Assembly (NCBI GenBank): GCA_963829055.1
Contig: CAWHHI010000008.1
Location: forward strand, 377,081-441,080
DNA: 64,000 nt
From: an uncultured Gemmatimonadaceae bacterium
Lineage (GTDB): Bacteria; Gemmatimonadota; Gemmatimonadetes; Gemmatimonadales; Gemmatimonadaceae
Reading direction: 5' to 3'
Positions 1-62,699 of the stretch are shown here, in pieces; within the stretch, counting starts at the first letter, position 1; each line of letters starts with the position of its first letter. The position numbers were made by a program, and so were the translations under genes. The notes beneath the pieces were generated by a model that had not been told where the DNA came from, searched no databases, and saw nothing but the letters and a program-made list of their open reading frames with translations.

Positions 1-724
1 AACAAGGCGTTATGCATGTTGTCGGTGCTGATCAACACGCACATGCTGGAAGCCGCGCGCGATGCTGGCGTTAGGCGCTTCTTCTACTCGTCGTCCGCGT
101 GCGTGTACAACGCGGACAAGCAGACGAGGCCCGACCTGGTCGCGCTCCGGGAGGAGGACGCGTATCCCGGCGATGCCCGAGGATGGCTACGGCTGGGAGA
201 AGCTGTTCTCGGAGCGCATGTGCCGGCACTTCCGCGAGGACTTCGGTCTCGTGACGCGCGTGGCGCGCTATCATAACGCGTACGGCCCGCATGGCACGTG
301 GGAGGGTGGCCGGGAGAAGGCACCGGCGGCGATCTGCCGGAAGGTGATCGCGGCCAAGGTGAGCGGGAAACACGAGATCCCGATCTGGGGCGACGGGAAT
401 CAGTCGCGGTCGTTCATGTACATCTCGGACTGCGTGCGCGGGACGCGGGCGATCATGGACAGCGACATCATCGAGCCGATCAACCTCGGGTCGAGCGAGC
501 TGGTGACGATCAACCAGCTGGTGTCGATCGTGGAGGGGATCGCGGGGATCGAGTTGAAGCGGACGTACGACCTGACGGCGCCGAAGGGCGTGAACGGGCG
601 GAACTCGGACAACACGAAGATCCGCGAGTACCTCGGCTGGGAGCCGTCGGTGGCGCTACGCGATGGGCTCGAGAAGACGTATCGGTGGATCTACGACGAC
701 TACGTCGCCAAGTACGGAAGCTGA
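1..724 (+). CDS. NAD-dependent epimerase/dehydratase, GDP-mannose 3,5-epimerase-like (5' partial, one frameshift near 170)
   Basis: FFYSSSACVY in ORF 16..276 continues as PEDGYGWEKLFSE (YxxxK), GGREKAPAAICRK, IWGDGNQSRSF, GVNGRNSDN in ORF 62..724. Confidence 0.85.
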
Positions 725-734
725 GACTCCTCGT

Positions 735-897
735 TCAAGTCGACGGAGTGCCTCGAATCCACGCGGGCCATCGAGCCACTCGACGCTCGAGCCAAGACGG
801 CACGAGTCCCTTGTTCGGTCGTCGCAGCACGAGGAAGAGAGCCGGGAGGTAGATCAGCAGCACGCCCGCCGCGCCGGATACACGGAGCCATACCTCC
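735..897 (-). pseudogene. C-terminal relic of a GT87-like membrane protein
   Basis: Hand translation GVLLIYLPALFLVLRRPNKGLVPSWLERRVARWPAWIRGTPST* matches the C-terminus of 18217..19212 (GVYLPAAILILRRPNTGALPERVERYAARLPRWLRGNAA*); in-frame stop upstream and no N-terminal part found. Confidence 0.7.
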
Positions 898-1284
898 TAC
901 GAAGGCGTGACACCAGGAGCGCAAGGGGCACGCGGCGGCGGCACGGGGGACCACACGGCGCGGCTCAACACGCGATGGTAGTTCACGAATGTTCGCTCTT
1001 CGGCGTACTCACGACGCGCAGCACCATTGCCACCGTGCGGATGCCCGGCACGGGATGGCGCCGACGAGCAGGTCCGCGCGTGCGCCCATGCCCGCTGGCG
1101 AAAGAGTCCGGAGAACGCTACGATCACAGCGGCGAAGCGGGTCGGCAGCGCAGACATGACACATCACTCTTGCCAAAGAGATCTGTCAGTCTGCAAGGCC
1201 ACCCGCTTCGTCACGTCATGAGCTCGCCTGATTCACCAGACGAGAAATGGCCAAAGTCCAGTCAAGCGCTTAGGAACCGAGGGC

Positions 1285-2337
1285 ATGCGGTACATTCATC
1301 AAGCCGACTTGCAAGAGGTCCTCGAAATCGGACGGCGGCGATTTCGAGGCGCTTCGAGGCGCGACCCTGCTCGTAACCGGCGCGACCGGGTTCGTCGGCT
1401 CATGGATTCTGGAGACGGCGGCTTTTGCTAACACCGCCGCGAGCGCGGGAATTCGTCTCGTTGCTCTGGTGCCGCCCGGAATTGACGCTACACAGGTCAG
1501 CCGACTGCACGGAGTGCGTGTCGTGGAGGGCGACATTCGAACTCTCGATCTTCGAGAGCTCGTGCGCCAGGCTCCTGAGGTCGCGGCGGTTGACGCCGTG
1601 GTCCACGCGGCTATCGCCGTGGACGCAACGACCGTCGCCGCGAACCCGATGCCAACGCTCGAGACGGCCGTGGAGGGAACACGACGTGCGCTTGCCGTCG
1701 CTCGGGAAAGCGGGGCGCGTCGGTTTCTCTTTCTCAGCTCTGGTGCCGTCTACGGAAAGTGCCCCCCTGACCTCACGCGTATCCCCGAGTCGTACTGTGG
1801 CGGTCCTGATACGACAGACCCGTTGGCGGTATACGCCGAGGGGAAGCGAATCGGCGAAATGATGTGTGCATGTACGACTCGCGCGCACGGACTGGAGACC
1901 GTCATGGCGAGGGGATTTGCGTTCGTCGGGCCACACCTGCCCATCGATCGCCACTTCGCGCTCGGCAATTTCATCCGCGACGCGCTTCGTGGCGGGCCTG
2001 TGGTTGTCGCGAGCGACGGCACTCCAATCCGTTCATACCAGTACGCGGCAGACATGGCGGCCTGGCTTTGGGCGCTGCTCGTTCGCGGTGAAAGCGGCCG
2101 TGCTTACAACGTCGGCGCCTCGCGCGAGATCTCCGTTGGTGAGCTTGCGCGGCTCGTCGCCGCTGCTGCCGGGAACGGTTCCACGGTCGAAGTGCGCCGT
2201 CCGGCAGTTCCGGGGCTACTCCCGAGCGATACTTGCCGGATGTGAGCCTCGCGACCGAGACGCTCGGTTTGCGCGAGACCGTGACCCTCGAAGAGAGTAT
2301 CGAACGCACACTCCGATGGCACCGGAGCTTCCAGTGA
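1285..2337 (+). CDS. NAD-dependent epimerase/dehydratase (YerF/UDP-glucuronate decarboxylase-like), frameshifted
   Basis: LLVTGATGFVGSW Rossmann motif, [40 protein letters not shown]. Confidence 0.85.
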
Positions 2338-3392
2338 GCGGGGACGTATCGCCACCGCATCGTTACCAGTGACCTCGAAGCGATCGGCGGAACTCAGCTT
2401 CCGTGGGAGCTGCTCGATGGAGCAACGGTGGCGATTACCGGCGCGTCCGGGCTCGTTGCATCATATCTCGCCGAGGCGCTGCTCTTTCGAAATGAATCGT
2501 ATGGTTCGCGAATTCGGGTGGTCGCGGCCGTTCGCAATCCGTCGGCTGCGCGCGAGCGGTTCTCCGCGTACCGTGGACGCGACGACATAGAGATCGTAGA
2601 GCATGACGCCGCCGGGCCACTCGAATACGTTGGACGCATTAACTATCTCGTGCACGCAGCCGGCAATGCGACCCCGAGCTCCTTTGGCCGCGACCCAATC
2701 GGCACCTACGCGCCTAACGTCGTCGGGACTCACCATTTGATGCAGCGAGCGCATGCAGACGCGCTCGGCAGCGGTGCTCTTTCTGAGCAGCGGGGCGGTT
2801 CATGGTGCTCTTGCCCCTGATGCCCCGATCTTGCGGGAGGATGTTTATGGAATTGTCGATCCGCTCGACCCTCGAGCGAGTTATGCCGAGTCCAAACGCA
2901 TGGGAGAGACGATCTGCCGAAGCTGGTGGGTGCAGCATGGAGTGCCCGTGCGGATGGCGCGCCTAGGGCACACCTACGGCCCCGGGATGCGGCGCTCGGA
3001 CGAGCGCGCGTTCGCCCAGTTCGTCTTCAGTGCGATCGACGGGAAGGACATCGTATTGAACAGCGACGGCTCGGCAGTTCGCCCGTACTGCTATCTTGCC
3101 GACGCCACTGCTGCATTACTTCGGGTGCTACTCGTTGGCTCCAACGGAGAGGCATACCTGGTCGCAAACACGTCGGCCTCGTGCTCGATCCGTGAGCTGG
3201 CGGATCTGGTTGCGAGCCTCGCACCGACACCGATCAGCGTACGGCGCGCTACAGCCGCTCCGCCGGCCGAGTACTTGCCCAATCGGGACCCGGCGCACCC
3301 GCTCGATATCTCGAAAATACGTGCGCTCGGCTGGGAGCCACGCACGGGCCTCCGTGAAGGGTTCCGTCAAGACGATCGAGAGTTACCAATGA
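2334..3392 (+). CDS. NAD-dependent epimerase/dehydratase (extended SDR), frameshifted
   Basis: AITGASGLVAS, HAAGNATP, YAESKRMGE, RLGHTYGPG; GTGA and ATGA overlaps with both neighbours. Confidence 0.85.
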
Positions 3393-4322
3393 CTGCTCGC
3401 CCCAGTGACCTGCGCCAGCAATACCTGAGTGGAGCGCTCGACAAGCATGAGTACGCGCGTCGGATCGGCGAGCACCACCTAACGCTGCGGGACCTGGCGG
3501 GGTTGCTGAAGGGATCGGACATTTCAACGATCGAGTTGAGTGCTGACGGAGTAACATTTGTCAGCCGCTTTGGTGGGGCGCGATTTCCGTGCGACCCTGT
3601 GGATCGCGGGCTTCCGCCCGTTGTTGCACTCAACTTCGGCAGCTACGAGTCGAAGGACTTCGAGATGCTGCTGGCGCTCGTGCCACGCGGCGCGACGTTC
3701 GTCGATGTCGGAGCGAACATCGGTTGGTATTCAGTGCACGTCGCGGTCGCCGATCCTACCGCGCGCGCAATCGCGATCGAGCCAATTCCGAGCTCATTTC
3801 GCTGGCTCTCCGCGGCGGTCGCCGCAAACGCCCTACCTAACGTGATAACGATCGAATGTAGCGGTGGGCGCAGAACGCGGTGAGTTGACGCTCTTCGTGG
3901 ATGCGACGATCTCCGGCGCGGCGTCAGCGGCTCCGTCAACCGGTCCGTCAGGCCTCGAACAGGTAACGTGTCCCGTCGTCACAATTGATGACGTCGTCGC
4001 CGAACACGGTGGCCGAGCCGACGTTCTGAAGCTCGATATCGAGGGCGCGGAGCTTTTCGCACTCCGCGGCGCAGCGAGCGTTCTCGCGATGCAACGTCCG
4101 ATTGTCTTCTGCGAGATGCTCCGAAAGCTCGCGCGGCCGTTCGGCTACCACCCGAACGACATTATCACTCTCATGCGCGGACACGGCTACGATTGCTACC
4201 GGGCGGATGGGGTCGACTCATTCCATTCGAGTCAATGGACGACGAAACGATCGAGACGAACTTCTACTTTCTGCACCAGGATGCTCACGCGCACGAGCGC
4301 GCAAAGTTCGTCAGTTCGCTGA
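3389..4322 (+). CDS. FkbM family methyltransferase, frameshifted (3' end approximate)
   Basis: FVDVGANIGWYS, AIEP, LKLDIEGAELFALRG, RPIVFCE. Confidence 0.85.
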
Positions 4323-4335
4323 GCAGGTCGTTGCC

Positions 4336-5300
4336 TCAGAAGTTCAGTCGTTCGAGTTCGTGGACTAGCGGCCGGTTCTTCACATAGGTGTAGATCGGCG
4401 CCCACGTATTCGCCGACGACGCCGATGAAGATCAACTGAATTGCGGAGAGGAAGAAGAAGCCAATCACCATCGGCGCGATCCCAAGATTGAAGCTGTTCC
4501 AAAGCGCAATCTTCGCGACCAGGTAGCCGAAACCAACCAGCATGCTCAGGACGGCGCCGTCGCCACTCCGGTGAGAGTTGCCATGCGAAGCGGGATCTTC
4601 GAGTGGTTGACGATTCCCTGGAACGCGACGTCGAATAGTTCGTACGTGCTGATCTTGCTCTTGCCGGCTCGCCGCACTTCCTGACGGTAGGGGATCTTCA
4701 CGCCTTGTAGCCCGTTTCCGCGACGAGCCCGCGAAAGAACGGGTACGGGTCCGCGATCTGGCGGAGCGAGGATGATGCGTTGGTCGTAGATGCCGAAGCC
4801 GGTCGCCTGATGAACGACCTCTACGTCGGCGACCTTCGCCAACCATCGATAGTACGTGTCGCGCACTTTGTACATGAACCAGTGTTCGTCGCTCTCGAGC
4901 TTGACGCCAAGTGCAATACGCGCTCCGGCGGCCCAAGCAGCCAGGAGTTGCGGAATCAGCGCGGGCGGGTCCTGAAAGTCGGCCCGATGCCAATGACTGC
5001 GTCGCCTCGTGCTTGCAACAGGCCATATACCGGTGACCGAATCGGGCCGAAGTTTCGCGTGTTGAGGATCACCTTCACAGCCGGGTCGGCAGCTGCCGAG
5101 CTCACGCAAGATCGCCGGCGTGCTGTCCGTCGATCCGTTATCGATGAACAAGTGCTCGTACCGATACGCTGGCAGACGGTCAATTCGCGCTTCACCGCGA
5201 GATAGATCTCGCGGACGTTAGGCTCCTCGTTGTAGCACGGAGTGACGACGGTAATGAGCGGATTCGACGATGGTTGGGGAGTTTGAGACTTGCAGCCCAC
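4336..5300 (-). CDS. GT2 polyprenyl-phosphate glycosyltransferase (GtrB/ArnC-like), frameshifted
   Basis: ITVVTPCYNEE, FIDNGSTD, NTRNFG, ADFQDPP, two C-terminal TM helices ending GEYVGAIY; paralog of 23845..24879. Confidence 0.85.
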
Positions 5301-5340: not shown

Positions 5341-6689
5341 CTACAACGTCTTCCTGTGGGGCTGTTGGACCTGGAGCAACGCGAGTGGAAGGCTCTCGCG
5401 CCGATGACGAGTGCCGCGTACCCTCCAACGGTGCGCTCGGCCGAGCGTCCGACAGCGACCGCAAATGTCCCCGCTGTCACGATCAGAGCGCCGTGATCGC
5501 GGTTTCCATGAGCGACTCTTCTCGCCACGCTCGAAGGTAGCTTCCGAAAGACTGAGTAAGCAGCCATGCAAGGTTGGTCGCACCGACGACGAGAGATCCA
5601 CCGGGCCGGTAGCGCCCGCGATGCGACCGTCGGAGACAGACCTCCGACGAACGACACAACGGCTGCCGCGGCGATAGCTCCGCAAGTTGCGACGGCCACC
5701 GCTTGGAGCGTTGCCCTCGTCGCGAGGCGACGGAGTTCGATTGCGCCGCCGCGCGAAAGCAACAAGGCAGTACTGTGGGTATCTCGCCCGCAGCCACGCA
5801 ATACTGAGCAGTCTAGCGGTGCCGTGGCAATTGCGAACGTCATGCCTACCCGCCCCGCCGCGACGGCGCCCTGTGTCACTAGAACGATCGCGGTGACGCT
5901 CTGTGGCGCCACCCACCGGCGAGCCATGTCGCGCCTGTGCGCCACTGCACTTCACCGAGCCCACCGGTTCTCTCAGTGCCGTGCCGGACCTGCGAGCGGC
6001 CTTCGACGACCAAGCCTGGGTGGCGTAAGCGAAGCCATCCCCCGTTATCGACACCCACGCAAGCGAAAACGCGGGCAACACCCCACGGGGCACCCAGCCC
6101 AAGAATCGCAATCCAGAGCGCTCAGGGCGGAGACCCACGTCTGTAGGAGCTCGCATCCGTTGCACACGAAGTAGGCCGCCGCAGCCCTCGATTGCACACA
6201 GCGATGGAATGAGCGGCAGGTACGCAGCCGTGACACCGCACCGTGATGCAGCCACGGCAGCAAAGCTGGTCGCCCAACCTCGCCCGCCTGTGGGAAGATC
6301 AACGCGATACTCCCCAACCGCATCCAACGACACCTAACGTCAATGCAACGCGGCCGTACCAGCGCTGCCCATCGTGTATCGCACGATGACACGCGAGCGC
6401 AGCGATGCGGAGTCGCCGGCCAACCCGCCGCGAGCATTCCATCGAGGAAAGCGGATTCATGGCTCGCCACCTGCACCATAAGCGTCCCGACGCCGAGCTC
6501 CATGAGCTGCGTCAGCGCCTGCAGGTTCCAGAGAATGAAAAATACTCCCTGTTCGGCAGGCGGTCGTCTGGTCGCGACGAGCCAAAGCGTCACTGGCGCT
6601 GCGAGTAGGAGCGACAACCGCGTCAGGAGAACGAACGCAACAGCAAGATCAAAGTGCGCAGCGGCCCTGCCCCGCCATGACATTGTCAT
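5341..6689 (-). CDS. Wzx-like polysaccharide flippase/exporter, heavily frameshifted (3' end approximate)
   Basis: Hydrophobic N-terminus LLLAAPVTLWLV..EQGVFFILWNLQALTQLMELGVG and further TM segments in alternating frames; position inside the glycan operon. Confidence 0.6.
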
Positions 6690-6738: not shown

Positions 6739-7944
6739 CTAGTTGATCTCGTAGAGCGTGATAATAGCCCGGTCCTCGCCGAGCAACTCGCGAATCTGGC
6801 TGACGATTTCGGTCTGGAACACTCTTGAGAGAATCAAGATTGGCTCGCGTCTGCCTTGCAGTGCCGATGGTGCGACAATTGGTCGACCGGCCACGGTTCT
6901 TACCATGGTACTTGGTATTCGAGTCGACGAATGCTCGGATGGCCGCGTCTCCGCAGACGGGTCGTTGCCAGAAGTCGCGTTGCGTTGGTTCCGACGCCCC
7001 ACACCACGATCGGCTGCTGCGATTCCACCAGCGCATCAATTCGCTCGTGAAGACGCCGCTCTTCGTCGGTACAAACGTTCAATGTATCGTTGCAACGCTG
7101 GCCCGGAGTCTCGATCTACGCCAAGCGACTCGGAATCTGCGCCGGTCAGTCGGAAGGCGGCCGAAACGTTGGACATGATTGTTCGGTGAGCCTGAATGCG
7201 ATGGTTCTGTTCGAGGAATAGCGTTCGGAACGCATGTGCGGCAAAAAGGTTGGCCAATGACACGGGCGCGAAGAAGTTGATGTGTTCGACACTGAAATCT
7301 TGAAATGGCGCGTTAGGCCAGCGGACGAATTCGAGTGCGTTTGGAACTTCAACATAGACGATCCCGCCCGGCGACAGGATCGAACGCACGTGCCTCATGG
7401 CCTCCGCAAGGTCTCGGATGTGCTCGAGCACACCGACGAGAACGACGACATCGAACGTGTAGGGAAGAGCTGGAAATTGACCAAGGTGGCCCTGCAACAC
7501 GTCGATACCGTGCAATCGCCGGGCGGTCTCGACGCAGGCAGGCGACGGGTCGAGACCAAGAACGTTCGGATACCCTCGCTCAGCGAGAAGGTAGAGCAGT
7601 CGGCCGGACGCGCATCCGATATCGAGGATACGAGAGTCGTTGCTGGGAACGAGCGGCCCGACGATATCGGCGATGACCTCCATACGAACCCGGTCGAACT
7701 CCGATTCCTCACCACTGCGCTGGTGATACTCGTACTTCGAGACGTCGCGATAGTAGTCGTCGAACTGTTGTTGGCTGGGAATGCCGTCGGCGTACGCGGC
7801 CCCACACCGCCCGCAAGTCACCACATCGTATCCATTGACTATGCTGACGCCGTCGATGGGTTCGAACCGCTGATGAAAGAGCTTGGCTGCAGCGGCCGCT
7901 CCGCAAACTGGACATGGTCGAGGTGCAACGTGAGCGCTGTTCAA
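6739..7944 (-). CDS. Class I SAM methyltransferase with N-terminal CxxC..CxxC and C-terminal Rossmann-like domain (NDP-sugar methyltransferase-like)
   Basis: CPVC..CGRC, ILDIGCASG, VLEH, EVPN, EHINFF, VVWGVG, FVDSN; paralog of 37753..38989. Confidence 0.8.
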
Positions 7945-9177: not shown

Positions 9178-10039
9178 CTACCAACAGGACTTACCTCCAT
9201 CGACGATCAGGTTGGAACCGGTCATGAACGATGATGCGTCAGAGCAGAGAAACAGGATCGCTCCCTGATACTCGTCTGCGCGTGCCATCCGAGCGAGCGG
9301 AATTCTTTCGGCCGCGAGCGCCAGGAAGGCGATGATCCTGGCCGTTCTCGATTCCGCCAACGGTTATCGAGTTGACCCTGACCCCAGCAGTTGCCCAGTA
9401 GGTCGCCAAGTAGCGAGTCATTCCAAGTAGGCCACTTTTTACCACGGAGTACGAGATCGGTTTGACGGGCTGTTCGTCCTCCGGGACACCGTCTATGTCG
9501 GTAGATGCGCTGATCGGGCGCGATGACACCGTACTCCGACGCGATATTCACGATGACTACCAAACCCTCGACGCGCCATTTCCCTGCCGATGATCTGACT
9601 GCAGAGAAACGCGCCGGTAAGCCCCACCGCGAGGTCGGCGTTCCATTGATCAAGGGAAAACCGCTCGAGCCGCGAGAAGGTGACTGACGTGTCTATCCTC
9701 CACTTTGGGATTGTTCGCGGCGTTGTTGATGAGGATGTCAACCTTGCCCATGCCGTTCATGATCGCGGCGAGCCAAGCGCTTCGACGTGAGCGGGACGCG
9801 TGATGTCCGCCGTGAAACGCCCAGGCATCGACACCGAATCGGTCGGCACATCCCGGGCGACCGACTCGGCCGCTTCGAGGACAATGTCGACGATGATCGG
9901 GATGCCGCCGGCGGCCGCGATCACCTCCGCGTGCTTAGGCCCGAGCAGGCCACCACCGCCGGCAATGACGGCGACTCGACCCGAGAGATCGAAAAGACTC
10001 GTTAGGGTAAGCTGTGGCCCTGTCGTTAGGAGTTGTCAT
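9178..10039 (-). CDS. Short-chain dehydrogenase/reductase (PtmA/ElaC-like), frameshifted
   Basis: [48 protein letters not shown]. Confidence 0.85.
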
Positions 10040-11122: not shown

Positions 11123-12937
11123 TCTTCGATCGGCGGCACGATCATGTTCGCGCGAAATTCTTCGCGGTCGAGAAACGGCCACAGGTCTTCGAGCGGTTTC
11201 GATACCATTGACCCATCCGGGCGTCGAGCGCTTGCGAGGCTCGGTGCACGTGGCTCTTCCGGCGGAGACAAGATCTCACACACGATGGGGCCCGTCGTGC
11301 TCGAGGACCTCGCGAATCCGTTCTCGCAGTCTGATCGTGATTTCCGATCTGGGCAGTCGGTAACCCATACGCCTCGGCGACCCGACGGATGTCCGGGAGC
11401 GTCACGCCACTCGTGCCATCGGCTCCGCATAGGCGCCCGAAATAACGGTTCTGAGAGGTGCGAATAGATGCGTAGCCATCGTTGTTGAGGACGAATATTT
11501 TTATCGGTAGGCGCAGCCGGGAAATGGTCTCAAGCTCCTGGATGTTGAGTTGAATCCCGCCATCACCGTCAACGAGAATCGTTCGGCGTCCGTTAGCCGC
11601 CAAGCACGCTCCAATGGCATGCTGGCAGCCCATACCCCATCGCTCCCAAGGCTGTCGTCAGGACGATGCGCTGACCGTGGTTTCGCGTCTAGTGCCAACA
11701 GGAAGATCTCGATGCCAGCGCCCGAACTGCCCGAGACGATCACTTCTCCCATCCTCTGTCTCAGCAGATAGCGCTTCGGCGAAGACGTAGGTGCTCACAC
11801 GATCCGTCAGGTCCCGATACTCCGGACAGCACGACCGGGTACCGCGCCTTCCACTCGCGGCACCGAGCGAGCCAATCGGTTCGCGCAGGCAAGACACCCT
11901 CCGGCAGCTGCTCCAACATTTCTCGCAGAAAGTCCCGGGCATCATAACGCGCCGCGATCGCCACGTGCGGTCGCATGCGATCGAGCTCCGACGCATCGAT
12001 ATCGATCATGATCTTGTGCGCCGAACGAGCGAACTTCTCAGGAGCGTATCCCGTCATGACGAGATCAAGTCGCGCGCCGATCGACAGCATCCAGTCGGCG
12101 TTCTGAAGAGCGAAGTTCGCTCCGCGTGGCGCGACAGGTCCTGGCCGGCCCACACAAAGCGGATGCGTGTCAGCGACCATGTCGTGACTCAACCATGTCT
12201 TCAGCACCGGAATGCCCAACCGCTCTATGGTTTCGGCAATTTCGGTTTTGCGCCCCGGCGAGCCTCACCCCGTTTCCGAATAGCAGGATCGGCCTGGCCG
12301 CGTTCCGCAACGATTCGAATCGTGTCGCGAACAATGCGCGAAAGATCGGCCTTCGTTTCCAGTCGTGTCGACGATTCGACCTCTCGCCGGATCGAACGAC
12401 GACAGTGTCTGTTCATCGACCATCGCTCCTTGGACGTCGAGTGGGATATCAATCCACACTGGCCCGGGCCGGCCAGTTCGTGCGAGGTACGCCGCCTTCT
12501 CGAGGTGGTATCGAATCGTGGACGGATCCGCTACCGTGACGGCATACTTGGTGATCGGCGCAACGATCGGCGACGATGTCGACCTCCTGCACGCCAAGTT
12601 GCCTAACGCCCGTGTCGGCCTTGAGGTCAGCGCGCTTCACCTGACCCGACACAAAAATGGTTGGTGTCGAGTCCAAGAACGCTCCGGCAACGCCCGTTAC
12701 AGCGTTCGTACCGCCTGGCCCCGTGGTGACGAGCGCCGCTCCGAGCCCGGCGATCTTTCCGTAGGTCTCGGCCGCCATGGCGCTCGCCTGTTCGTGGAGA
12801 TTGCACACGAAGGTCAGACCCGTACATTGACCGACGGAATCATTCAAGTGCATCGCACCGCCACCGGTGACCATGAAAATATGGCGCACCCCTAGGTCGG
12901 CAATGAATCGGACGACGTAGTCGGAAAGCTTGATCAT
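11119..12937 (-). CDS. Thiamine-diphosphate-dependent enzyme, YerE-like carboligase (acetolactate synthase fold), frameshifted
   Basis: MIKLSDY, FMVTGGGAMHLNDS, HEQA, TTGPGGTNA, RQLGVQE, GDGG..NN ThDP motif, SKPLEDLWPFL. Confidence 0.85.
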
Positions 12938-22724: not shown

Positions 22725-22867
22725 GCGAAGGACAGCAGCCGACGGGGGCGCATCAATGCGCTGAACTGGAGGCGCTCCGTGGCGGCGAACTAGGAGCATC
22801 TGCTGGACCGCCGGTAACCCGTTGGCCGCTGACGAGCGGCGCGGCCGTTGCATCGTTTCGCCCCGTT

Positions 22868-24887: not shown

Positions 24888-25000
24888 CCGGCTTCACCGG
24901 CCATTCTCAGCCTGTTCCTTGCGTTAGGCTACCTGATCTACAAACTGGTCTTCTGGCAGGAGTTCACGCTCGGCCTCGCGCCTCTGGTTATTTGGTCGGG
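24888..25000 (+). pseudogene. Fragment of a second GtrB-like gene (TM region)
   Basis: 24921..24992 matches 24577..24648 at 57/72 nt by hand; ALGYLIYKLVFWQEFTLGLAPLVI vs ALGYLVYKLIYWQQFTVGIAPLVI. Confidence 0.75.
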
Positions 25001-51794: not shown

Positions 51795-53658
51795 CGCACT
51801 TCGAAGTGACCGACGCCCTGCGCGATGGGATACTCACGCTCGAGCGCCGCGCGGAGCTCACCACTGACCTTCGGCGAGAACTCGGGCTCGGTGTTGATCG
51901 CGATCACGCGGACGTCACGCTCGCGGAGGGAGCGCAGGAGTCGCGTGGTGCGCGACTCCTGGTCGTCGAAGAAGTCGTACATCGTTCGTGTCGGGTTGCG
52001 ACGTCCGGTGAGGAAGTACGCCTCGGGGGCGTCGGGCGCCGCGTAGATGTAGTCGGAATCGCTTCTGGCGTGGCGCTGCAGGACGGCGACGAGAGCGGAG
52101 TAGTCCTGCGCCGTGCCGATCGGTACTCGTACACCTCCTCCGCGCGGCGTCTCGAGCGCGAGCAGCGGCCGATAGGGCGCGTACGCCGCTCCCATGCCGT
52201 AGATGAACCCGGGGTACACGCGCAGGACCGCGAACGCGATGAACGTCGCTGCCAGCGCACCGGGAACAGCCGGCGACGGCAGGTTCAGCTCGCGCGTGAC
52301 GGCGAGCGCACCTAACGCGAGCAGCGGCGTCAGGTAGCAGAAGTAGATCGGCGCGGCGAACGGGAACTGGATGAGCGCGAACATCGCGACCGCTGCGGCG
52401 ACGATCATGAGCCGCTGCCGCCGCACGGCGGGCCGCGCACCCACGCCCGCGACGATCGCCGCGGCGCCAACCACGATCACCGTGGTGAGCAACGTCGCCG
52501 CGGCGAACATCCAGCGGTACGTCGTCCCTGATGTCGCCGCATCGACGACCATGACGGTGCCGACGATCGCGACCATGAACGCGAGGAAGATCGACGTCCG
52601 ACGCGGGGTTCGTTGTGACACGAGCGCCACGCCAGCGACGCACAGCGCCGGCAGCCCTCGCGTCCACGACATGCGGCGGCATCGCCGCGTACGTGAGCCG
52701 GCGCGCTGGTGTGATGAACACGCCGCGCACGAAGTCTCCGACGGAGTGCGACGTCACGTACGGAATCAGGAAGAGCGCGACCGGAATGGCGACACCGAGC
52801 ATGAACGGCAACGCGAGGCGCGCGAGCGCGCGAAATCGCTCGGGCGACGATCCTCGCCGCGCGTTCACCCGACGCTCGTTGTAGAGCAGCGCGGCCGAGA
52901 GCACCGCTCCGGGCAGCACGAACTGAATCAGGAAGTTCGGGCCGGACGCGCCTCTCACCAATCGGGCGAGCACGAACACGAAGGCGCTCAGGCCGAGCGC
53001 AATGAACAGCGAGTAGCCCACACCGCGCGTGCCGCTCGAATCGGATCGCTGACTCCGACAGCGACGGGCGATTCATCCTCACCTTCCTGCTCGCGGTAGA
53101 TGAGGAAGAGCACCACCGCGGCGATGTAGTACAGTCCGATGAGCTTCATCAGAAACGAGATGCCGCCGCAAAGCCCGCCACGAACAACCAGCGCCGCCTC
53201 CGCACGTCGACGAAGCGAAGCAGCGCCGCGGTGCCGAAGACAGCGAAGATGAGGTTGTACCACGATGGCAGCGCCGCCGTGTAGTTAGGCACACTCCAGA
53301 CGACACGGCGAGCAGCGTCGTGACCGCCGCACCGACCGGCGACGCGAATCGCGTCGCCGCGTAGAACAAGGCAGGCACGCACATCAGGAAGACCGCGACG
53401 AGCACGATCCGCGGCGACCGAATGTTCATGCCCGAACACCCGCATGGCGCCGGCGTTGATGTAGGCCAGGCCGCCGGTGTACACGTCGTCGAAATCCCGA
53501 TGCGGCAGCTCGCCGGCCAGCACGCGCTCGGCGGTGTGACCGATCAGCCCTTCATCGTGCGGGACCCACCCGCGATCGATGTGTGATATCAGGAGCGCGG
53601 CCGAAATGGCCCACACGATCACGAGGAGCACGATTGACTGGCGTCTTGTGGGCGTCAC
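51782..53658 (-). CDS. ArnT/PMT-like GT-C membrane glycosyltransferase, frameshifted
   Basis: WVPHDEG..AERVLAGELPHRDFDDVYTGG after the first TM; many TM segments; soluble C-terminal domain (YFLTGRRNPTR). Confidence 0.65.
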
Positions 53659-54652: not shown

Positions 54653-55736
54653 TCAGCACAGATGAACGGCCATGGCCTTGAACGACGCGTACGCCTCGCC
54701 GCCAACCGCCAACGCGAGCTCCTGCGCCGACCGCGTCGTTAGGGCGGCGACGAGCGGCGTGCCGTCCACGTCGAGCGACACGCGCGTGAGCGCGCCAAGT
54801 GTCGAGATCTCGGTGATGCGTCCGCGAAAATGATTGCGCGCTGACGTCGCCGGCTGCGGCTCGAGCGATAGCTGCACCTCCTCGGCGCGTATGACGGCGT
54901 ATCCCGGTGTCTCGACCGCGTTCGCGACGGCGTAGATCGTGAGCGGGCCAGTGCGGAATTCGATCGCGTGATGGCCTGCGCCCGCTGATGATTCTGACCC
55001 CAGAGCCCAGTCGGGGAAATCGTCCGAAAGCACGCTTGCGGTTCCAGCAAACACGTTCTCGGCGCCGAGGAACTCTGCTACGTACGGGGAGGCGGGCTTG
55101 CGAAAGACCTCTTCCGGGCGACCACTCTGAAGCACACGCCCACTGTCGAGCAGAATCGCCACATCGCCCAGGAGGCCCGGCCTCGGTGAAGTCATGCGTG
55201 ACCTGGAGGACGGTCAGCCCCCACTCGCGATGAACCCGCCGAAGCTCGCGACGCGTCGACTCTCGGCGTCGCGGGTCGAGCGCGCTGAAGGGCTCGTCGA
55301 GCAGCAGGATCGATGGCTGTCTCGCGAGCGCACGAGCGAGCGCCACGAGTTGCCGCTCGCCGCCCGACAGTGACTCCACCGCGCGGCCGCGCAGATCCCA
55401 GGCGCCGATACGCGTCGCGACCTCGCGCGCGACGGTGGCGTCCGACGCGCCGTATGCGATGTTCGCCTCGACCGAGAGGTGCGGAAACAGGTAGCCGTGC
55501 TGATAGACGAGCCCGAGCCCTCGCAGCTCCGGCGGGAGCCCAGTCGCGGGTCGACCATCGAGCGACAGTGAGCCACCGGTCTGCGGCGTGATGCCAGCGA
55601 TCGTCTCGAGCAGCGTGGTCTTGCCGGAGCCAGCTGGTCCGATGACGACGCCGTACGCTGCTTTCGGGACGGTGAACGTGACGTCATGAAGGCGGAACGA
55701 GCCGACTCGTGCCGTGAGGCCGCGCGCCTCGATCAC
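54653..55736 (-). CDS. modC: Molybdate/tungstate ABC transporter ATP-binding protein with TOBE domain, frameshifted
   Basis: GPAGSGKT, LSGGERQ, LLDEPF, TSARN..VAALTTRSAQEL..FKA (TOBE). Confidence 0.75.
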
Positions 55737-56719: not shown

Positions 56720-57676
56720 GTGTCATTCGCGGTCGACATCAGCGGCGTCGTAAAACGCTACGCCGGCCACGTCGCCGTGCGCGACCTGTCCCTTCGCGTA
56801 CCGCGTGGCGCCGTCTACGGGCTGCTCGGGCCTAACGGGGCCGGAAAGACGACGACGATTCGCATGATCCTGAACATCATCGCGCCCGACGAGGGCACGA
56901 TCGAGGTACTGGGCCAGCCGAACGCGACGTCAGGGTTGCTCGATCGCGTCGGCTATCTGCCGGAAGAGCGCGGGTTGTACAAGAAGATGCAGGTGCGCCG
57001 ACTGCTCAGGTTCCTCGCCGCGCTCAAGGGCGTGTCGGCGAAGGACGCAGACCATCGCATCGATGTCTGGATGGAGCGGTTGCGCTCTCGAGCCCCGCGA
57101 AGGACTGGGGGCAGGCGAAGGTGGACGAGCTGTCGCGCGGCATGCAGCAGAAGGTGCAGTTCATCGCGGCCATGCTGCACGAGCCGGAGCTCGTGATACT
57201 CGACGAGCCGTTCAGCGGCCTCGATCCGATCAACGCGCAGGCGATGAAGGACACCGTCGTCGATCTCAAGCGCGAAGGGCGCACGGTCATCTTCAGCACC
57301 CACCTCATGGACAGCGCCGAGCGTCTCTGCGATGCGGTGTGCATCATCGCGCGCGGCGAGAAGGTGCTCGACGGACCGATCGAGGAAGTGCGCGCCGAGC
57401 ACGGCGGGACGCACGTCGCGCTGTCGTTAGGCGGGAGCTCGGCCAACGGCGTGGGCGCGGTGCTGAACGACCCGCGGCTCGTCGCGCGACTCAATGACTC
57501 CAACCGGTTCTTCGAGATCGAGCTCGACGACCGGCGCGGACCCGCAGCTGTTGCTGCGGCGGCTGATGGAGGCCGGCGCGTCGATTCAGCGCTTCGAGCT
57601 GGTGAGGCCGTCGCTGCACCAGATCTTCCTGCAGAAGGTGGGCGCGAGCGGCATCGAGTCCGGGATGACGGAGTAG
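56720..57676 (+). CDS. ABC transporter ATP-binding protein (NatA/YhaQ-like), frameshifted
   Basis: GPNGAGKTT, YLPEERGLY, LSRGMQQK, LDEPFSGLDPIN, PSLHQIF. Confidence 0.9.
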
Positions 57677-57718
57677 ACGTTAGGCCCGTTAGTCCGTCGG
57701 CCAGTCGGCTACATGTTG

Positions 57719-59629: not shown

Positions 59630-59638
59630 GGGTGTCAC

Positions 59639-60189
59639 CTAACGATTATTGCTGCGGAAGGCCTTGCCCAGCACGTAGCCGAGGCCGAGCGCGATGAGCA
59701 GCGTGCGTCCGGGGTTCTCGCGGACCTGCTTCTCGATGTCACGCCTTGAGGTCGCCGTTGCGGAGCCAGTCAGCAGACTTGCTCATGCCACGCGCGACGG
59801 AGTCCTGCACGTTGGCCATGCGGTTCTCTGTCGCCGCGGCGACGCGTTCCGCCGTCGGTAGCACCGGCCAGGTCCCGCTCGAACTGCGCTGACGCAGCTT
59901 GTCGGCACCGGCGTCGAGCCGATCGGCAAGCGTCGACTGAAGATCGCGCGCCTTGTCCTTCACCTGGCCGAACTTGTCCTGCACCGTGGCCTTGGCCTGC
60001 TCGGTCCGGCCGTCTGACCCATGTCGGACTCGAGTGCCCGTCGTCGAGTAGTCCGAGCCGCCCATGCCGGACCCGACGCTGCCTCGCCATTCCTGTTCCG
60101 CCGTTCCACTGAGCTCCAAACGCGTTCGTGCCGCCGGTGGAACCCTGACCACCGGTCGCGCCAAACGTGTCGTCAGCGTTACGCTCCAT
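59639..60189 (-). CDS. ElaB/DUF883-like tail-anchored protein, frameshifted
   Basis: Gly/Ser-rich N-terminus, helical middle, C-terminal QVRENPGRTLLIALGLGYVLGK. Confidence 0.6.
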
Positions 60190-61190: not shown

Positions 61191-61214
61191 GTCGAGATAC
61201 GGCCACGACTGCAA

Positions 61215-61300
61215 GGCTAGTGGCTGGCTGGCTGGGTGACGCTAGTTCATCCAGCGTCATCCAGCTAACCAAGCCACCAGCAATCCAGCCTGACCAGCCT
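61215..61300. repeat. Degenerate short repeats (CCAGC/GGCTG-rich)
   Basis: GGCTGGCTGGCTGG followed by ATCCAGC, ATCCAGC, ACCAGC, ATCCAGC, ACCAGC units. Confidence 0.4.
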
Positions 61301-61304
61301 GTTG

Positions 61305-62689
61305 CTACCTGACAATGTGTAGCTCGCTCTGCCGCTTGTACGCCCAGCGATGTCTTCCCATCCGGCCCGACGAAGAAGTCCTCTTCCTGCGCCATGCGGA
61401 CCGGCTGGCCGCCCCACTCGGGCACCGGCGTCGTCGCCTGCAGCTCCGACGAGAACCACATGCTCGGGATGATCTTCGCGTCGCCGCGGCCCGGGACGCC
61501 TTCCTGGTAATCCCACAGACCGATCAGCGGGCCGGCGCCGTGGCCGTGCATGCCGATCGGGTGCGAGTACATCGTGCCGCTGATGCCCTCGGACTTCGAG
61601 TCTTCGCGAGACTCGACTTCAGCACCTCGTTGCCCGTCCGGCCCGGTCGGACTTCCTCCATGAGGATGTCCTGGAACCGGTTCGAGTTCGCGAGCGCCTT
61701 GCGCAGCCCCGCCGGCACGTCGGTCTCGCCGTCGCGCAGCACGTAGGCATGTGCTGCGTGTCCGTGTTGAGTCGCAGCGCGGTGATGCCGACGTCGCAGT
61801 GCAGCACGTCGCCACGCTCGATCACGGGATCGTCGCCGAGCTGCTCGTCGCTCGCTCCTTTCCGCTGCACCTCGATCGATGGCTGGAACCAGGTGCCGAG
61901 ACCGAGGTCGTTCACCTGCTGGCGCCACCACCACACGAGGTCGCTCGTGCGCGTCACGCCCGGACGGATGACCTCGTTCGAGAACATGCGGCCGATGAGC
62001 TCGTGCACGAGCTTGGTGAGCTCGGTGTAGAACACTTCCTCGTCAGGCAGCCGCGTCGCGATGAGCTCGAGCGGAAGCGCTTCGGCGTGCTTGAACCGCG
62101 ACGTCCACTTCGACCCGAGCGCCGCGCTCATGCCCTCGAGCTCGCCGGCGCTCAGGCCGTCGGAGAACGCGAACGTGCGCGAGACGTCGATCCCGATGAC
62201 GTTCGGGTTCCGCTGCTCGATGACGTCCTTGAGCACGAGCCACTGCTGGTCGCCCCAGAGCTCGGCCTGTCGCCCGCCGACCGGCGGCGTCGACCGCCTG
62301 CGTCGAGCGGACGGCGTCGTAGAGCCCGCCCTGCGACGTGCCGCCGAGCGCGATGCGCTCGACGCAGCCGGTCTGTCGCGTTAGGCGCGCGCGCCGTCGC
62401 GGCGCACTTGTCGAAGAAGACGTAGATCGTGCGACGGCGCGCGGCGAACGTCGTCGGCGAGACGAGCGACGATGAAGACGGGATCCTCGTTGTACTCGCG
62501 CATCGGCACGACCCACATGTCGATGCCGTGCTTCTTCATCAGCGCGGGCAGGACGGTCGTTAGGCGCTGCTGCGAGCCACTGCTGCTGGCGATCGGCCTG
62601 TTCCCGCAGGGTGCCGAACGGGCGAGTGGGCTGGGCGGCGAGCGGGAGCGCCAGCGATGGCAGGAGGATCGGACGAGTCTGGTGCGCAT
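61305..62689 (-). CDS. M24 family Xaa-Pro aminopeptidase (secreted), frameshifted
   Basis: REYNEDP, GDVLHCDVG..NTDTQH, YSHPIGMHGHGAGP, SSEL, EED metal-ligand motifs. Confidence 0.85.
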
Positions 62690-62699
62690 GGACGTTAGG

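What the first reader, a model, noticed from the sequence alone, without database searches (positions are those of the whole stretch)
69..62699. Highly iterated non-palindromic heptamer CCTAACG/CGTTAGG throughout the window
Seen: 52 exact copies counted by eye, about 1 per 1.2 kb. There are 29 as CGTTAGG (69, 5216, 7311, 10000, 10024, 14629, 15298, 16419, 16714, 16741, 20438, 22719, 24578, 24922, 31768, 33637, 37564, 40195, 41378, 42255, 46587, 47714, 49084, 54737, 57425, 57678, 62379, 62558, 62693) and 23 as CCTAACG (2713, 3478, 3836, 6333, 12602, 13625, 20331, 21438, 21649, 23499, 26395, 28113, 33737, 35570, 36741, 37997, 39666, 45352, 46301, 49657, 52311, 56831, 59638). A rough expectation at ~66% GC is 7-8 for both strands. 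I saw only three copies of GTTAGG with another 5' base (16114, 33368, 53283). Most copies sit in coding DNA in several frames and force codons rare in GC-rich genomes (TTA, CTA, CCT, AGG). Three diverged paralogs all write their LPNG motif with it (16714, 40195, 42255). Established: DNA-uptake sequences and cyanobacterial HIP1 behave this way, whereas Chi and KOPS are strand-polarised and this motif is not. Inference: a genome-wide signal such as an uptake sequence, a protein-binding or modification site, or a repair-biased motif. I do not recognise it as described.
Basis: partly seen in the sequence, partly recalled or inferred. Interest (0 to 1): 0.82.

Follow-up and report, generated by a model that had tools for sequence, protein, structure and literature searches.

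The report
Genome-wide GCCTAACG self-tag word
This soil bacterium has written one eight-letter DNA word thousands of times through its ordinary genes against its own codon habits, much as Neisseria and Haemophilus tag their own DNA, and the word matches the end of integron gene-cassette recombination sites, though what reads it is still unknown.

Summary
The heptamer is the core of an octamer, GCCTAACG. The genome (Gemmatimonadaceae, 7.78 Mb) holds 5,004 copies, about 22-fold over a codon-preserving shuffle and about 300-fold over non-enriched relatives. Copies have no shared flanks. They are synonymous recodings that use rare codons, fill 23.5% of all writable positions, show no strand polarity, avoid each other below 200 bp, and are conserved within the genus. 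No Vsr, DNA methyltransferase, RecBCD/AddAB or pilus gene tracks the word. The distribution is patchy: some Gemmatimonadaceae genera, and independently some Chthoniobacterales (Verrucomicrobiota), which use the dialect GCCTAACGA. At least one phage carries it at 1.8 per kb. The word equals the R'' end of these lineages' integron attC sites, and the dialect follows the local attC flank. Best reading (about 0.35): a DNA self-tag of the uptake-sequence kind with an unidentified reader. I found no published description.

The parts
69..75 (+). CGTTAGG copy, full octamer CGTTAGGC
2713..2719 (-). CGTTAGG copy (CCTAACG on +), full octamer
3478..3484 (-). heptamer copy only (octamer position differs)
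3836..3842 (-). heptamer copy only
5216..5222 (+). full octamer copy
6333..6339 (-). heptamer copy only
7311..7317 (+). full octamer copy
10000..10006 (+). heptamer copy only; 24 bp from the next copy (rare close pair)
10024..10030 (+). heptamer copy only
12602..12608 (-). full octamer copy
13625..13631 (-). full octamer copy
14629..14635 (+). heptamer copy only
15298..15304 (+). full octamer copy
16419..16425 (+). heptamer copy only
16714..16720 (+). full octamer copy; writes P-N-G of A-L-P-N-G in paralog 1 (open frame 16586-18538, minus strand)
16741..16747 (+). full octamer copy; writes P-N-V in the same frame, 27 bp from the previous copy
20331..20337 (-). heptamer copy only
20438..20444 (+). 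full octamer copy
21438..21444 (-). heptamer copy only
21649..21655 (-). full octamer copy
22719..22725 (+). full octamer copy
23499..23505 (-). heptamer copy only
24578..24584 (+). full octamer copy
24922..24928 (+). full octamer copy
26395..26401 (-). full octamer copy
28113..28119 (-). full octamer copy
31768..31774 (+). heptamer copy only
33637..33643 (+). full octamer copy
33737..33743 (-). full octamer copy
35570..35576 (-). full octamer copy
36741..36747 (-). full octamer copy
37564..37570 (+). full octamer copy
37997..38003 (-). full octamer copy
39666..39672 (-). heptamer copy only
40195..40201 (+). full octamer copy; writes P-N-G of A-L-P-N-G in a 111-aa paralog fragment (40079-40411, minus strand)
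41378..41384 (+). full octamer copy
42255..42261 (+). full octamer copy; writes P-N-G of A-L-P-N-G in paralog 3 (41737-43881, minus strand)
45352..45358 (-). heptamer copy only
46301..46307 (-). full octamer copy
46587..46593 (+). heptamer copy only
47714..47720 (+). full octamer copy
49084..49090 (+). full octamer copy
49657..49663 (-). full octamer copy
52311..52317 (-). heptamer copy only
54737..54743 (+). heptamer copy only
56831..56837 (-). full octamer copy
57425..57431 (+). full octamer copy
57678..57684 (+). full octamer copy
59638..59644 (-). heptamer copy only
62379..62385 (+). full octamer copy
62558..62564 (+). full octamer copy
62693..62699 (+). full octamer copy

Best explanation
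The heptamer is the core of a free-standing 8-bp word, GCCTAACG. Positions 2-7, CCTAAC, are strict and the outer positions are softer. This Gemmatimonadaceae genome carries about 5,000 copies, one per 1.5 kb. It is not a repeat element. Copies were created one by one by point substitutions, mostly synonymous and against codon preference, on either strand, and they are kept at regular spacing. I read it as a DNA self-tag of the uptake-sequence kind. A sequence-specific DNA-binding reader favours DNA that carries the word when DNA is exchanged and recombined among cells of the lineage, so the word spreads until codon cost and diminishing returns near existing copies stop it. Shown: a DNA-level directional force, saturation graded by codon cost, short-range repulsion, conservation within the genus, graded over-representation of near-matches, and lineage specificity. 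Inferred: that the force is an acquisition or recombination bias, and that a protein reads the word. Its specificity equals the R'' end of these lineages' integron attC sites, so the integron integrase, or a protein with the same DNA recognition, is the leading candidate.
For: Abundance. There are 5,004 octamers. It is the top 8-mer by composition (O/E 16.9). Markov orders 1-3 give O/E of 38, 49 and 19, and the codon-preserving shuffle gives 150.6 +/- 12.9 against 3,258. Density is 0.654 per kb against 0.002 per kb in 485 kb sampled from non-enriched relatives. No flank conservation beyond one base. DNA-level force. All 3 rpoB sites are synonymous recodings of invariant peptides (CTC/CTG to TTA/CTA), and none of 9 other Gemmatimonadota rpoB sequences has a copy. 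45% of all TTA codons in called genes (1,297 of 2,878) lie inside the word. Saturation. 3,258 of 13,878 synonymously writable positions are written. Occupancy falls with codon cost: 58% for P-N (CCT AAC), 23-24% where TTA or CTA is needed, 10.7% for GTT AGG. No polarity. 2,589 of 4,984 neighbouring copies share orientation, the Spearman correlation with GC skew is -0.16 (p = 0.06), and run lengths are geometric. Regular spacing. Gaps of 60 bp or less number 13 against 100.5 +/- 9.3, and gaps of 200 bp or less number 89 against 307 +/- 15.6, under a null that resamples writable sites. Conservation. 24 of 41 G000 sites are kept in G005 against 18% of all octamer windows, 17 of 61 in G004 against 16%, 0 of 39 in G008 and 0 of 21 in G283. 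Graded mismatch classes: perfect about 300-fold, one mismatch 2.1-fold, two mismatches 1.07-fold, the pattern reported for true uptake sequences (PMC1939737, abstract only). Density matches DUS at one per 400-1,100 bp (PMC7371117, passages). The word is denser outside called genes, 0.89 against 0.56 per kb. It is absent from three foreign contig-end blocks. ComEC, DprA, a PilQ-like secretin, PilT paralogs and 7 pilin-like genes are present. Lineage-restricted, with a dialect in a second phylum.
Against: No uptake or transfer bias has been measured, and I know of no demonstrated natural competence in these phyla (recalled). The competence and pilus genes are equally present in non-enriched G283 and G008, and no ComEA match was found in G000. 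Unlike DUS and USS, close inverted pairs acting as terminators are absent: 13 opposite-orientation pairs within 60 bp, and 40 pairs in all against about 189 expected. One phage fragment carries the word at 1.83 per kb, above the host density, whereas DUS density drops in Neisseria islands (PMC7371117, passages); the same paper does say Pasteurellaceae prophages accumulate USS. A pilin-type receptor would leave three things as coincidences: the identical word in two phyla, its identity with the attC R'' end, and the dialect matching the local attC flank. No gene that tracks the enrichment was found.
Confidence: 0.35

Rival explanations
1. Integron-linked word. The reader is the integron integrase itself or a derivative, which binds R boxes. 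The chromosome is studded with integron core sites for an integrase-dependent purpose, such as raw material for new cassettes or attC sites, landing sites, decoys that titrate integrase, or a self-mark for recombination.
For: The octamer equals the R'' box plus one base of the attC sites of this order (G015, G013, G017 arrays; G000's own array beside IntI). The consensus is R'' RYYYAAC and R' GTTRRRY, and the aadB attC R'' is GCCTAAC (PMC12901181, passages). The same word arose in a second, integron-rich phylum. There the genome-wide dialect adds A (94% of 357 copies), and the local attC sites read ...CTAAC-GA-.... G000's commonest ninth base is C (0.39), and 5 of its 7 attC-like sites read GCCTAACGC. 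Integrase over the curated cut-off occurs in 8 of 8 clearly enriched verrucomicrobial genomes against 13 of 30 non-enriched ones, in 8 of 12 enriched Gemmatimonadales (the 4 misses are 77-93% complete MAGs), and in 0 of 14 control genomes.
Against: Integrase is also present in 11 of 14 non-enriched Gemmatimonadales and 13 of 30 non-enriched verrucomicrobia, so it is not sufficient. The counts are not phylogenetically independent. Integrases cluster by phylum, with no enrichment-specific clade. No known integrase activity creates isolated synonymous core sites. Genome copies lack the attC palindrome. Randomly oriented active sites inside genes would be dangerous. G000's own integrase is highly divergent, on a very long branch.
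Confidence: 0.2
2. Architectural or maintenance site. The word is the binding site of a chromosome-organising, replication or repair protein and is kept by selection on resident DNA (the 2018 reading of HIP1), with no role in DNA exchange.
For: Regular spacing with short-range repulsion and fewer long gaps than Poisson. Both orientations are used equally. Conservation within the genus is above background. A phage that replicates in such hosts would also profit from the host factor. HIP1 was argued to be selected and linked to nucleoid structure (PMC5861425, abstract).
Against: An essential architectural system would not be expected to be present in G230 and G287 yet absent in G283 of the same genus, or to be graded from 0.1 to 1 per kb among genera. 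This reading gives no reason for the identity with the attC end. No candidate protein was identified.
Confidence: 0.2
3. Neutral mutational or repair bias. This would be very-short-patch-type or other sequence-specific repair, possibly coupled to methylation, that converts near-matches into the word.
For: Some one-step neighbours are scarce, for example GCCCAACG at 0.5-fold of baseline. All enriched lineages write the same word irrespective of gene. A Dam-class methyltransferase is present in the genus.
Against: Vsr was found in 0 of 7 genomes of the genus. C5 methyltransferase was found in 1 of 15 enriched genomes, and N4/N6 methyltransferase in none of G000, G001, G005, G294, G230, G183, G282 and G118. 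G000 has no Type I/IIG methyltransferase. The Dam-class gene was not found in enriched G294, G153, G108, G010, G288 and g66, but is present in non-enriched G283, G007, G009 and G055. A neutral bias does not predict repulsion between copies or conservation above background. Many sites need two substitutions through a rare intermediate.
Confidence: 0.05
4. Chi-like recombination hotspot or nuclease-taming self-mark, read by RecBCD or AddAB on broken DNA.
For: It is a non-palindromic octamer, over-represented, and present on phage DNA at high density. That would fit protection of linear DNA from a helicase-nuclease.
Against: There is no co-orientation with replication. RecC was found in only 3 of 33 panel genomes, and only one of those (G153) is enriched. 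PDDEXK_1 (AddAB-type) matches occur in 6 of 17 enriched against 11 of 16 non-enriched genomes, with none in G230, G287, G183, G282, G108, G010, G118, G201 and G161. Chi gives no reason for short-range repulsion.
Confidence: 0.05

Closest known systems
DNA uptake sequences: DUS of Neisseriaceae and USS of Pasteurellaceae
   Same: A short non-palindromic word at about one per kb, on both strands, inside genes in several frames and denser between genes. It overrides codon preference, its near-matches are over-represented in a graded way, it is lineage-restricted with dialects, and it is missing from foreign DNA (PMC7371117 passages; PMC1939737 abstract). The even spacing of USS is recalled from Karlin et al. 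1996, which I did not read here.
   Different: Uptake bias and a receptor are untested. There are no inverted-pair terminators. The distribution is patchy even within one genus. The same core word occurs in two unrelated phyla. The word equals the integron attC end. A phage carries it above host density.
HIP1 (GCGATCGC) of cyanobacteria
   Same: A hyper-abundant octamer written through genes, conserved between related genomes, non-randomly spaced, with a function debated for decades and recently tied to transformation (PMC5861425 and PMC13756078 abstracts; 10.1101/2024.09.10.611283, abstract start from the search listing).
   Different: HIP1 is a palindrome with two cognate orphan methyltransferases and is phylum-wide. 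This word is asymmetric, no methyltransferase tracks it, and it occurs in scattered genera.
Integron attC recombination sites (R'' box RYYYAAC, R' box GTTRRRY)
   Same: Letter-for-letter identity with the R'' box plus the next base of the attC sites of these lineages, including the phylum-specific next base.
   Different: attC sites are imperfect palindromes of about 60-140 nt, arranged in one-strand arrays beside intI. The genome-wide copies are bare 8-mers with random flanks and random orientation inside conserved genes. Only a handful of G000 copies are attC-like.
Chi sites (RecBCD/AddAB)
   Same: An asymmetric, over-represented octamer.
   Different: Chi is co-oriented with replication and needs RecBCD or AddAB. 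This word has no polarity, and most enriched genomes lack both enzymes.

Membership tests
DNA uptake sequences (DUS/USS) | Genome-wide hyper-abundance (about 1 per kb) of one short non-palindromic word beyond codon and composition expectation | tested here: met
   5,004 copies, 0.65 per kb; 22-fold over the codon shuffle; about 300-fold over non-enriched relatives
DNA uptake sequences (DUS/USS) | Both orientations equally frequent, with no replication or transcription polarity | tested here: met
   2,457 forward and 2,547 reverse; neighbour concordance 0.519; geometric run lengths; 1,742 against 1,516 by sense strand
DNA uptake sequences (DUS/USS) | Graded over-representation of mismatched forms | tested here: met
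   Perfect about 300-fold, one mismatch 2.1-fold, two mismatches 1.07-fold against the baseline
DNA uptake sequences (DUS/USS) | Frequent inverted pairs acting as transcription terminators | tested here: not met
   13 opposite-orientation pairs within 60 bp; 40 close pairs in all against about 189 expected
DNA uptake sequences (DUS/USS) | Competence machinery (type IV pilus, ComEA, ComEC, DprA) present | tested here: inconclusive
   ComEC, DprA, a PilQ-like secretin (below cut-off), PilT and pilins are present, but equally so in non-enriched genomes; ComEA not found in G000, which is 86% complete
DNA uptake sequences (DUS/USS) | Preferential uptake of DNA carrying the word, and a specific receptor (ComP-type minor pilin) | not testable with these tools
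   Needs uptake or transformation assays and binding studies
HIP1-type iterated palindromes | Palindromic word recognised by cognate orphan DNA methyltransferases | tested here: not met
   The word is asymmetric; no methyltransferase family co-occurs with the enrichment
Chi | Strand co-orientation with replication | tested here: not met
   Spearman -0.16 with GC skew; 406 against 453 and 659 against 640 in bins of opposite skew
Chi | Cognate RecBCD or AddAB in the genomes that carry it | tested here: not met
   RecC in 1 of 17 enriched panel genomes; PDDEXK_1 in 6 of 17
Integron attC sites | R'' (RYYYAAC) and R' (GTTRRRY) boxes | tested here: met
   GCCTAAC and GTTAGGC fit both consensus boxes and are the boxes of local attC sites
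Integron attC sites | Imperfect palindrome with L boxes, about 60-140 nt, in one-strand arrays next to intI | tested here: not met
   No flank conservation over 6,391 copies; random orientation; only the 7 copies at G000 C20:200.7-207.2 kb look attC-like
Very-short-patch repair-driven motifs (Dcm/Vsr type) | Vsr endonuclease and a C5 methyltransferase in the genome | tested here: not met
   Vsr in 0 of 7 genomes of the genus; PF00145 absent from G000, G001 and G005
Dispersed repeat elements (REP, MITE) | Conserved sequence extending beyond the core, mostly intergenic | tested here: not met
   The logo is flat outside 8-9 bp; 65% of copies lie inside called genes

The most novel reading that the evidence does not exclude
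The word is read by the integron integrase or by a protein that shares its R-box recognition. Certain soil Gemmatimonadaceae and Chthoniobacterales have tagged their whole chromosomes, and some of their phages, with the integron core site. The tagging is tuned to each lineage's own attC flank. If so, integron recognition has a genome-wide role, either as a self-mark for DNA exchange or as the raw material from which new attC sites and cassettes are made. That would bear on the unsolved origin of gene cassettes.
Probability: 0.2. Interest if true: 0.95.

Novelty: new variant of a known kind. Interest (0 to 1): 0.8.

Why it matters
Sequence-specific self-tags on DNA are established for only two proteobacterial families, with HIP1 in cyanobacteria now under debate. 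Here the same kind of signature appears in two uncultured-rich soil phyla. It is strong enough to claim 45% of all TTA codons and nearly a quarter of all positions where it can be written silently. If it marks DNA for exchange, it reveals sequence-selective gene flow in abundant soil bacteria, and it gives a practical handle for transforming them and for detecting foreign or chimeric DNA in their assemblies, as it did here. The letter-for-letter match to the integron core site, repeated with the right dialect in a second phylum, also makes a link between integrons and genome-wide sequence evolution directly testable.

Tried and rejected
(1) Maximal-order Markov ranking did not flag the word, because its own sub-words absorb the signal (order-4 O/E 1.7). 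Lower orders, the codon shuffle and an empirical baseline were used instead. (2) Repeat-element reading: rejected because the flanks are not conserved. (3) Vsr, C5, N4/N6, Type I/IIG and Dam-class methyltransferases as drivers: none tracks the word. (4) Dialects in non-enriched relatives: samples of 67-100 kb from G082, G008, G117 and G283 show no alternative hyper-abundant 7- or 8-mer. (5) Pilus and competence genes as discriminators: present in both enriched and non-enriched genomes. Pilin orthology was not pursued. (6) RecBCD/AddAB: no association in the expected direction. (7) Motif-free islands as horizontally acquired DNA: the three large ones are foreign contig ends. The five internal gaps of 12-16 kb hold native single-copy genes and no evident mobile DNA. 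(8) Shared sites across genera as proof of common ancestry: 7 of 24 for G230 and 6 of 55 for G294 are no more than independent filling of the same writable positions would give, my inference from the 23.5% occupancy. (9) My first attC detector failed on positive controls and was replaced by an exact R''/R' pair rule. (10) search for related loci with a window beta-lactamase-family protein found no relatives. (11) The opposite-orientation viral scan gave 31 loci, nearly all with 2-4 copies, so saturated phage contigs are rare in that collection. (12) Public runs are kept only as contigs, so no modification signal could be read. (13) An integrase clade specific to enriched genomes was not seen. 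(14) Earlier notes' claim about plasmids: not tested.

Full report
OBSERVATION. 35 of the 52 extend to CGTTAGGC/GCCTAACG. The side claims hold. There are only three GTTAGG copies with another 5' base, at the stated places. Three paralogous frames, 35-48% identical, each write A-L-P-N-G with the word. The window is G000:C8:377081-441080 of a 7,784,024-base, 20-contig assembly. Its genes form a polysaccharide-biosynthesis cluster. RpoB is 82-86% identical to MAGs titled Gemmatimonadaceae.

THE UNIT AND ITS ABUNDANCE. Genome-wide there are 6,391 heptamers (3,237 and 3,154 by strand; 0.82 per kb, against 0.81 in the window). The next base is C in 78% of copies, and nothing else in a 37-nt frame is conserved, so this is a bare word and not a repeat element. 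The octamer GCCTAACG has 5,004 copies and is the most over-represented 8-mer by composition, with O/E 16.9. Markov orders 1, 2 and 3 give O/E of 38, 49 and 19. Order 4 gives 1.7 only because the word's own sub-words are nearly all inside it. A within-gene synonymous shuffle keeps every protein and each gene's codon counts, including the rare codons the word itself contributes. It expects 150.6 +/- 12.9 octamers against 3,258 observed. Measured against 485 kb sampled from four non-enriched relatives, perfect copies are about 300-fold up (0.654 against 0.002 per kb), one-mismatch forms 2.1-fold, and two-mismatch forms 1.07-fold. The tolerated variants sit at positions 1, 8, 3 (C>A) and 5 (A>G), so CCTAAC is the strict core.

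HOW IT IS WRITTEN. My gene calls are crude (6,397 genes, 75% of the DNA; an underestimate, because the assembly has indels). Under them, 3,258 copies lie in genes in all four stop-free frames (1,297, 445, 605 and 911), and 1,746 lie outside called genes, giving 0.56 against 0.89 per kb. In rpoB the three copies are purely synonymous: G-L-T written GGC CTA ACG, and A-L-G and P-L-G written with TTA. Nine other Gemmatimonadota rpoB sequences use CTC or CTG there and have no copy. 45% of all TTA codons in called genes (1,297 of 2,878) lie inside the word. Of 13,878 positions where the octamer could be written without changing the protein, 3,258 (23.5%) carry it. Occupancy falls with codon cost: 58% for xxG CCT AAC Gxx, 23-24% for the TTA and CTA frames, and 10.7% for GTT AGG. 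This shows a DNA-level force balanced by codon selection.

ARRANGEMENT. Orientation behaves like a coin flip. 2,589 of 4,984 neighbours agree, run lengths follow the geometric expectation, and there is no correlation with GC skew (rho -0.16, p 0.06), although gene strand does follow skew (rho 0.45). That excludes Chi- or KOPS-type polarity. Copies avoid each other: gaps under 200 bp are 2-5-fold depleted and gaps of 400-2,000 bp are enriched. Against a null that redistributes the written state among writable positions, gaps of 60 bp or less number 13 against 100.5 +/- 9.3, and gaps of 200 bp or less number 89 against 307 +/- 15.6. A neutral mutational bias does not predict this. Diminishing returns near an existing copy do.

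WHERE IT IS MISSING. Three blocks of 31-50 kb without any copy all lie at contig ends (C6 head and tail, C11 head). They have higher GC, many broken frames and housekeeping genes. Sampled genes in the C6 head and the C11 block (ftsK, DAHP synthase, chorismate synthase, PepM17 peptidase, folD) have second copies elsewhere at only 47-59% identity. Tetranucleotide distance is 0.19-0.32 against a background mean of 0.10 and a 95th percentile of 0.145. I read them as foreign DNA joined by the assembler, not as part of this genome. Five internal gaps of 12-16 kb hold single-copy native genes with near-normal composition.

RELATIVES. All 7 genomes of the genus carry 2,501-5,112 octamers against about 260-370 for the reversed-word control. 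One sister genus (G010) has 605 against 237, and the other 13 of 21 relatives have 4-65. In a 301-genome sample of the phylum, 12 genomes exceed twice the control: G000, G294, G230, G287, G153, G183, G282, G108, G118 and G288 in family f1, and G201 and G161 in f2. G208 reaches 1.7-fold, and 288 are at or below about 1.1-fold. Within genus g34, G230 and G287 have about 4,000 copies while G283 has 66. That tally includes four genomes flagged unpublished (G072, G193, G169, G111). Non-enriched genomes have no alternative hyper-abundant word. Aligned to G000, 24 of 41 sites are conserved in G005 (against 18% of all octamer windows) and 17 of 61 in G004 (against 16%). The figures are 7 of 24 in G230, 6 of 55 in G294, 0 of 39 in G008 and 0 of 21 in G283, and the usual alternative is an ordinary CTC or CTG leucine context. 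Within the genus the sites are therefore inherited and kept. Between genera the overlap is no more than independent filling of the same writable positions would give; that is my inference from the occupancies.

CANDIDATE MACHINERY. Vsr: 0 of 7 genomes in the genus. C5 methyltransferase: 1 of 15 enriched against 7 of 14 non-enriched. N4/N6 methyltransferase: 7 of 15 against 11 of 14, and none in G000, G001, G005, G294, G230, G183, G282 or G118. G000 has no Type I/IIG methyltransferase. G000 has one Dam-class gene, split across two frames. Its orthologues occur in 12 of 20 enriched and 5 of 16 non-enriched genomes, and none was found in 100%-complete G294. ComEC and DprA are present in G000. A PilQ-like secretin, PilT paralogs and 7-13 pilin-like genes occur in each of G000, G294, G230, G283 and G008, and no ComEA match was found in G000. 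RecC is in 3 of 33 panel genomes. AddAB-type nuclease domains are in 6 of 17 enriched against 11 of 16 non-enriched. Nothing tested tracks the word.

THE INTEGRON COINCIDENCE. In out-group genomes of the order (G015, G013, G017), the few octamer copies sit every 500-650 bp on one strand, at the start of a conserved element of about 95-100 nt that ends in T-GTTAGGC. This is the anatomy of integron attC sites, whose boxes are R'' RYYYAAC and R' GTTRRRY; the aadB attC R'' is GCCTAAC (PMC12901181, passages). G000 has an integron integrase (C20:208011-208985, 265.7 bits, just over the cut-off) with 7 attC-like copies beside it. The rest of its copies are not attC-like: flanks are flat, orientation is random, and my first, flank-complementarity rule found only 3 candidates, although that type of rule later failed on positive controls. 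Integrases are common in the order, over the cut-off in 14 of 21 and in all of G294, G230, G287, G153 and G283. The integrase is therefore not sufficient.

A SECOND PHYLUM, AND PHAGES. Earlier notes of this scan (unchecked AI notes) reported the same word in other Gemmatimonadaceae, in another phylum and in viruses, so I tested this. Of those, 41 are titled Gemmatimonad*, 29 are titled Chthoniobacterales, Verrucomicrobiae or Spartobacteria, and 10 are from other taxa. Excluding the two ascertained copies, density is 0.98 per kb in the first group and 0.91 per kb in the second (28 of 29 loci with 5 or more copies; 190 forward and 167 reverse). All 10 others have only the two ascertained copies. 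Whole-genome counts in five verrucomicrobial genomes are 2,254, 661, 2,595, 2,918 and 2,349 against controls of 250-332. In a 71-genome sample of that order, 4 exceed twice the control, 1 is marginal and 66 are not enriched. In this phylum the word has a ninth base, A, in 94% of 357 copies. In G000 the ninth base is C 0.39, A 0.25, T 0.20, G 0.16. Integrases over the cut-off occur in 8 of 8 clearly enriched verrucomicrobial genomes, several with multiple copies, against 13 of 30 non-enriched ones. The hypergeometric probability is about 0.004, uncorrected for shared ancestry. The attC sites beside those integrases read [A/G][T/C]CTAAC-GA-GAAC..., so the local attC flank carries the same GA that defines the local dialect. 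Integrases cluster by phylum, with no enrichment-specific clade.

Most multi-copy hits are one-strand cassette-like arrays. One 17-kb contig (L319, GC 61%) has 31 copies on both strands (1.83 per kb) with unrelated flanks, inside genes for an SU10-type portal, scaffold, and large and small terminase. Its ninth-base profile matches Gemmatimonadaceae. L249 (GpA terminase, 8 copies in 15 kb) and L387 (Sak, NinG and terminase, 9 copies in 18 kb) are also phage-like, while L263 (11 copies in 13.5 kb) shows only an endolysin-like domain.

READING. The statistics are those of uptake sequences. Density matches (DUS one per 400-1,100 bp, with strong drops in islands, and prophages accumulating USS with co-evolution; PMC7371117, passages). 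So do strand neutrality, use of several frames, graded near-matches (PMC1939737, abstract) and lineage restriction with dialects. I therefore favour a self-tag that biases DNA exchange, at a confidence of about 0.35. The function is untested, the machinery is not discriminating, and inverted-pair terminators are absent. The identical core in two phyla, its identity with the attC end and the co-varying dialect are hard to credit to chance, and they point to a reader with integron R-box specificity. An architectural binding site under selection remains a serious rival, while neutral repair bias and Chi are unlikely.

NOVELTY. Three full-text searches found no description of this word as a genomic signal. 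The first used the exact octamers (478 papers hold one, and the 20 listed are primers and constructs). The second combined Gemmatimon* with uptake and iterated-motif terms. The third used uptake-sequence survey terms. Eight earlier notes of this scan describe the same phenomenon in other genomes. They are not independent evidence, but I re-derived their main claims here.

Noticed in passing
G000:C6:5440-55037, C6:591808-623330, C11:1-46789 (outside the window): Three word-free blocks at contig ends have higher GC and outlying tetranucleotide composition. The C6 head and C11 blocks carry second, 47-59% identical copies of single-copy housekeeping genes (ftsK, DAHP synthase, chorismate synthase, folD). 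They are most likely chimeric joins to another organism's DNA. The word works as a sensitive marker of foreign sequence in these assemblies.
   Followed up: yes
G000:C19:47991-52509 (rpoB); G000:C8:134573-135647 (Dam-class methyltransferase); window 22710, 22817, 28506, 29296: Essential genes are split across frames. Short-read contigs from several studies show 1-2 base indels relative to the window, so the assembly appears to carry indel errors. Broken frames here should not be read as pseudogenes.
   Followed up: partly
G000:C20:200711-208985: A chromosomal integron: an integrase on the minus strand at 208011-208985 (just over the curated cut-off, very long branch in the integrase tree), with seven attC-like sites at 200.7-207.2 kb lying downstream of it rather than divergent from it.
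   Followed up: partly
L003 (G015:C95:1-20000), L004, L005, L006; L533 (G381:C2:1395001-1415000): Large one-strand cassette arrays in non-enriched Gemmatimonadales (attC of about 95-100 nt) and in Chthoniobacterales (attC of about 123 nt, boxes mostly ATCTAAC/GTTAGAT). Both orders are unusually rich in integron integrases; G312 has five matches over the cut-off.
   Followed up: partly
window 16586-18538, 40079-40411, 41737-43881 (minus strand): A family of large proteins (651 and 715 aa, plus a 111-aa fragment) with no Pfam match sits inside the polysaccharide cluster. The members share a conserved Y-[IL]-A-L-P-N-G stretch.
   Followed up: partly
window 24646-24991: Contigs from three independent studies (X3, X4, X8) join 24774 to 24991 with 59 other letters between, and go back from 24989 to 24646. 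This is either a structural difference from the window or a local misassembly.
   Followed up: no
window 29353-29686: Summed contig depth jumps to 50-93 in all four runs, against about 1-15 in most other bins. This is probably a conserved glycosyltransferase segment recruiting contigs of other organisms.
   Followed up: no
whole genome G000: Other over-represented words: TCGCGA-centred palindromes (ATCGCGAT, 1,870 copies, O/E 12.6; TCGCGATC, 3,251), and words flagged by the maximal-order Markov model (TGTCATCC, CTCGGAAT, TCGGAATGA, TTCCTCGACT, TCCGCTCGGA) that may belong to longer repeat families.
   Followed up: no
L319 (IMGVR_UViG_3300049057_000028, 1-16975): A phage fragment with an SU10-type portal carries 31 copies of the host word with the Gemmatimonadaceae ninth-base profile. 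It is a likely Gemmatimonadaceae phage and a possible experimental handle.
   Followed up: partly
L387 (IMGVR_UViG_3300033067_000767): A lambdoid-type phage contig (Sak, NinG, terminase; GC 56%) in which 8 of 9 copies are on one strand and 8 of 9 are followed by T. This may be a different repeated element containing the word.
   Followed up: no
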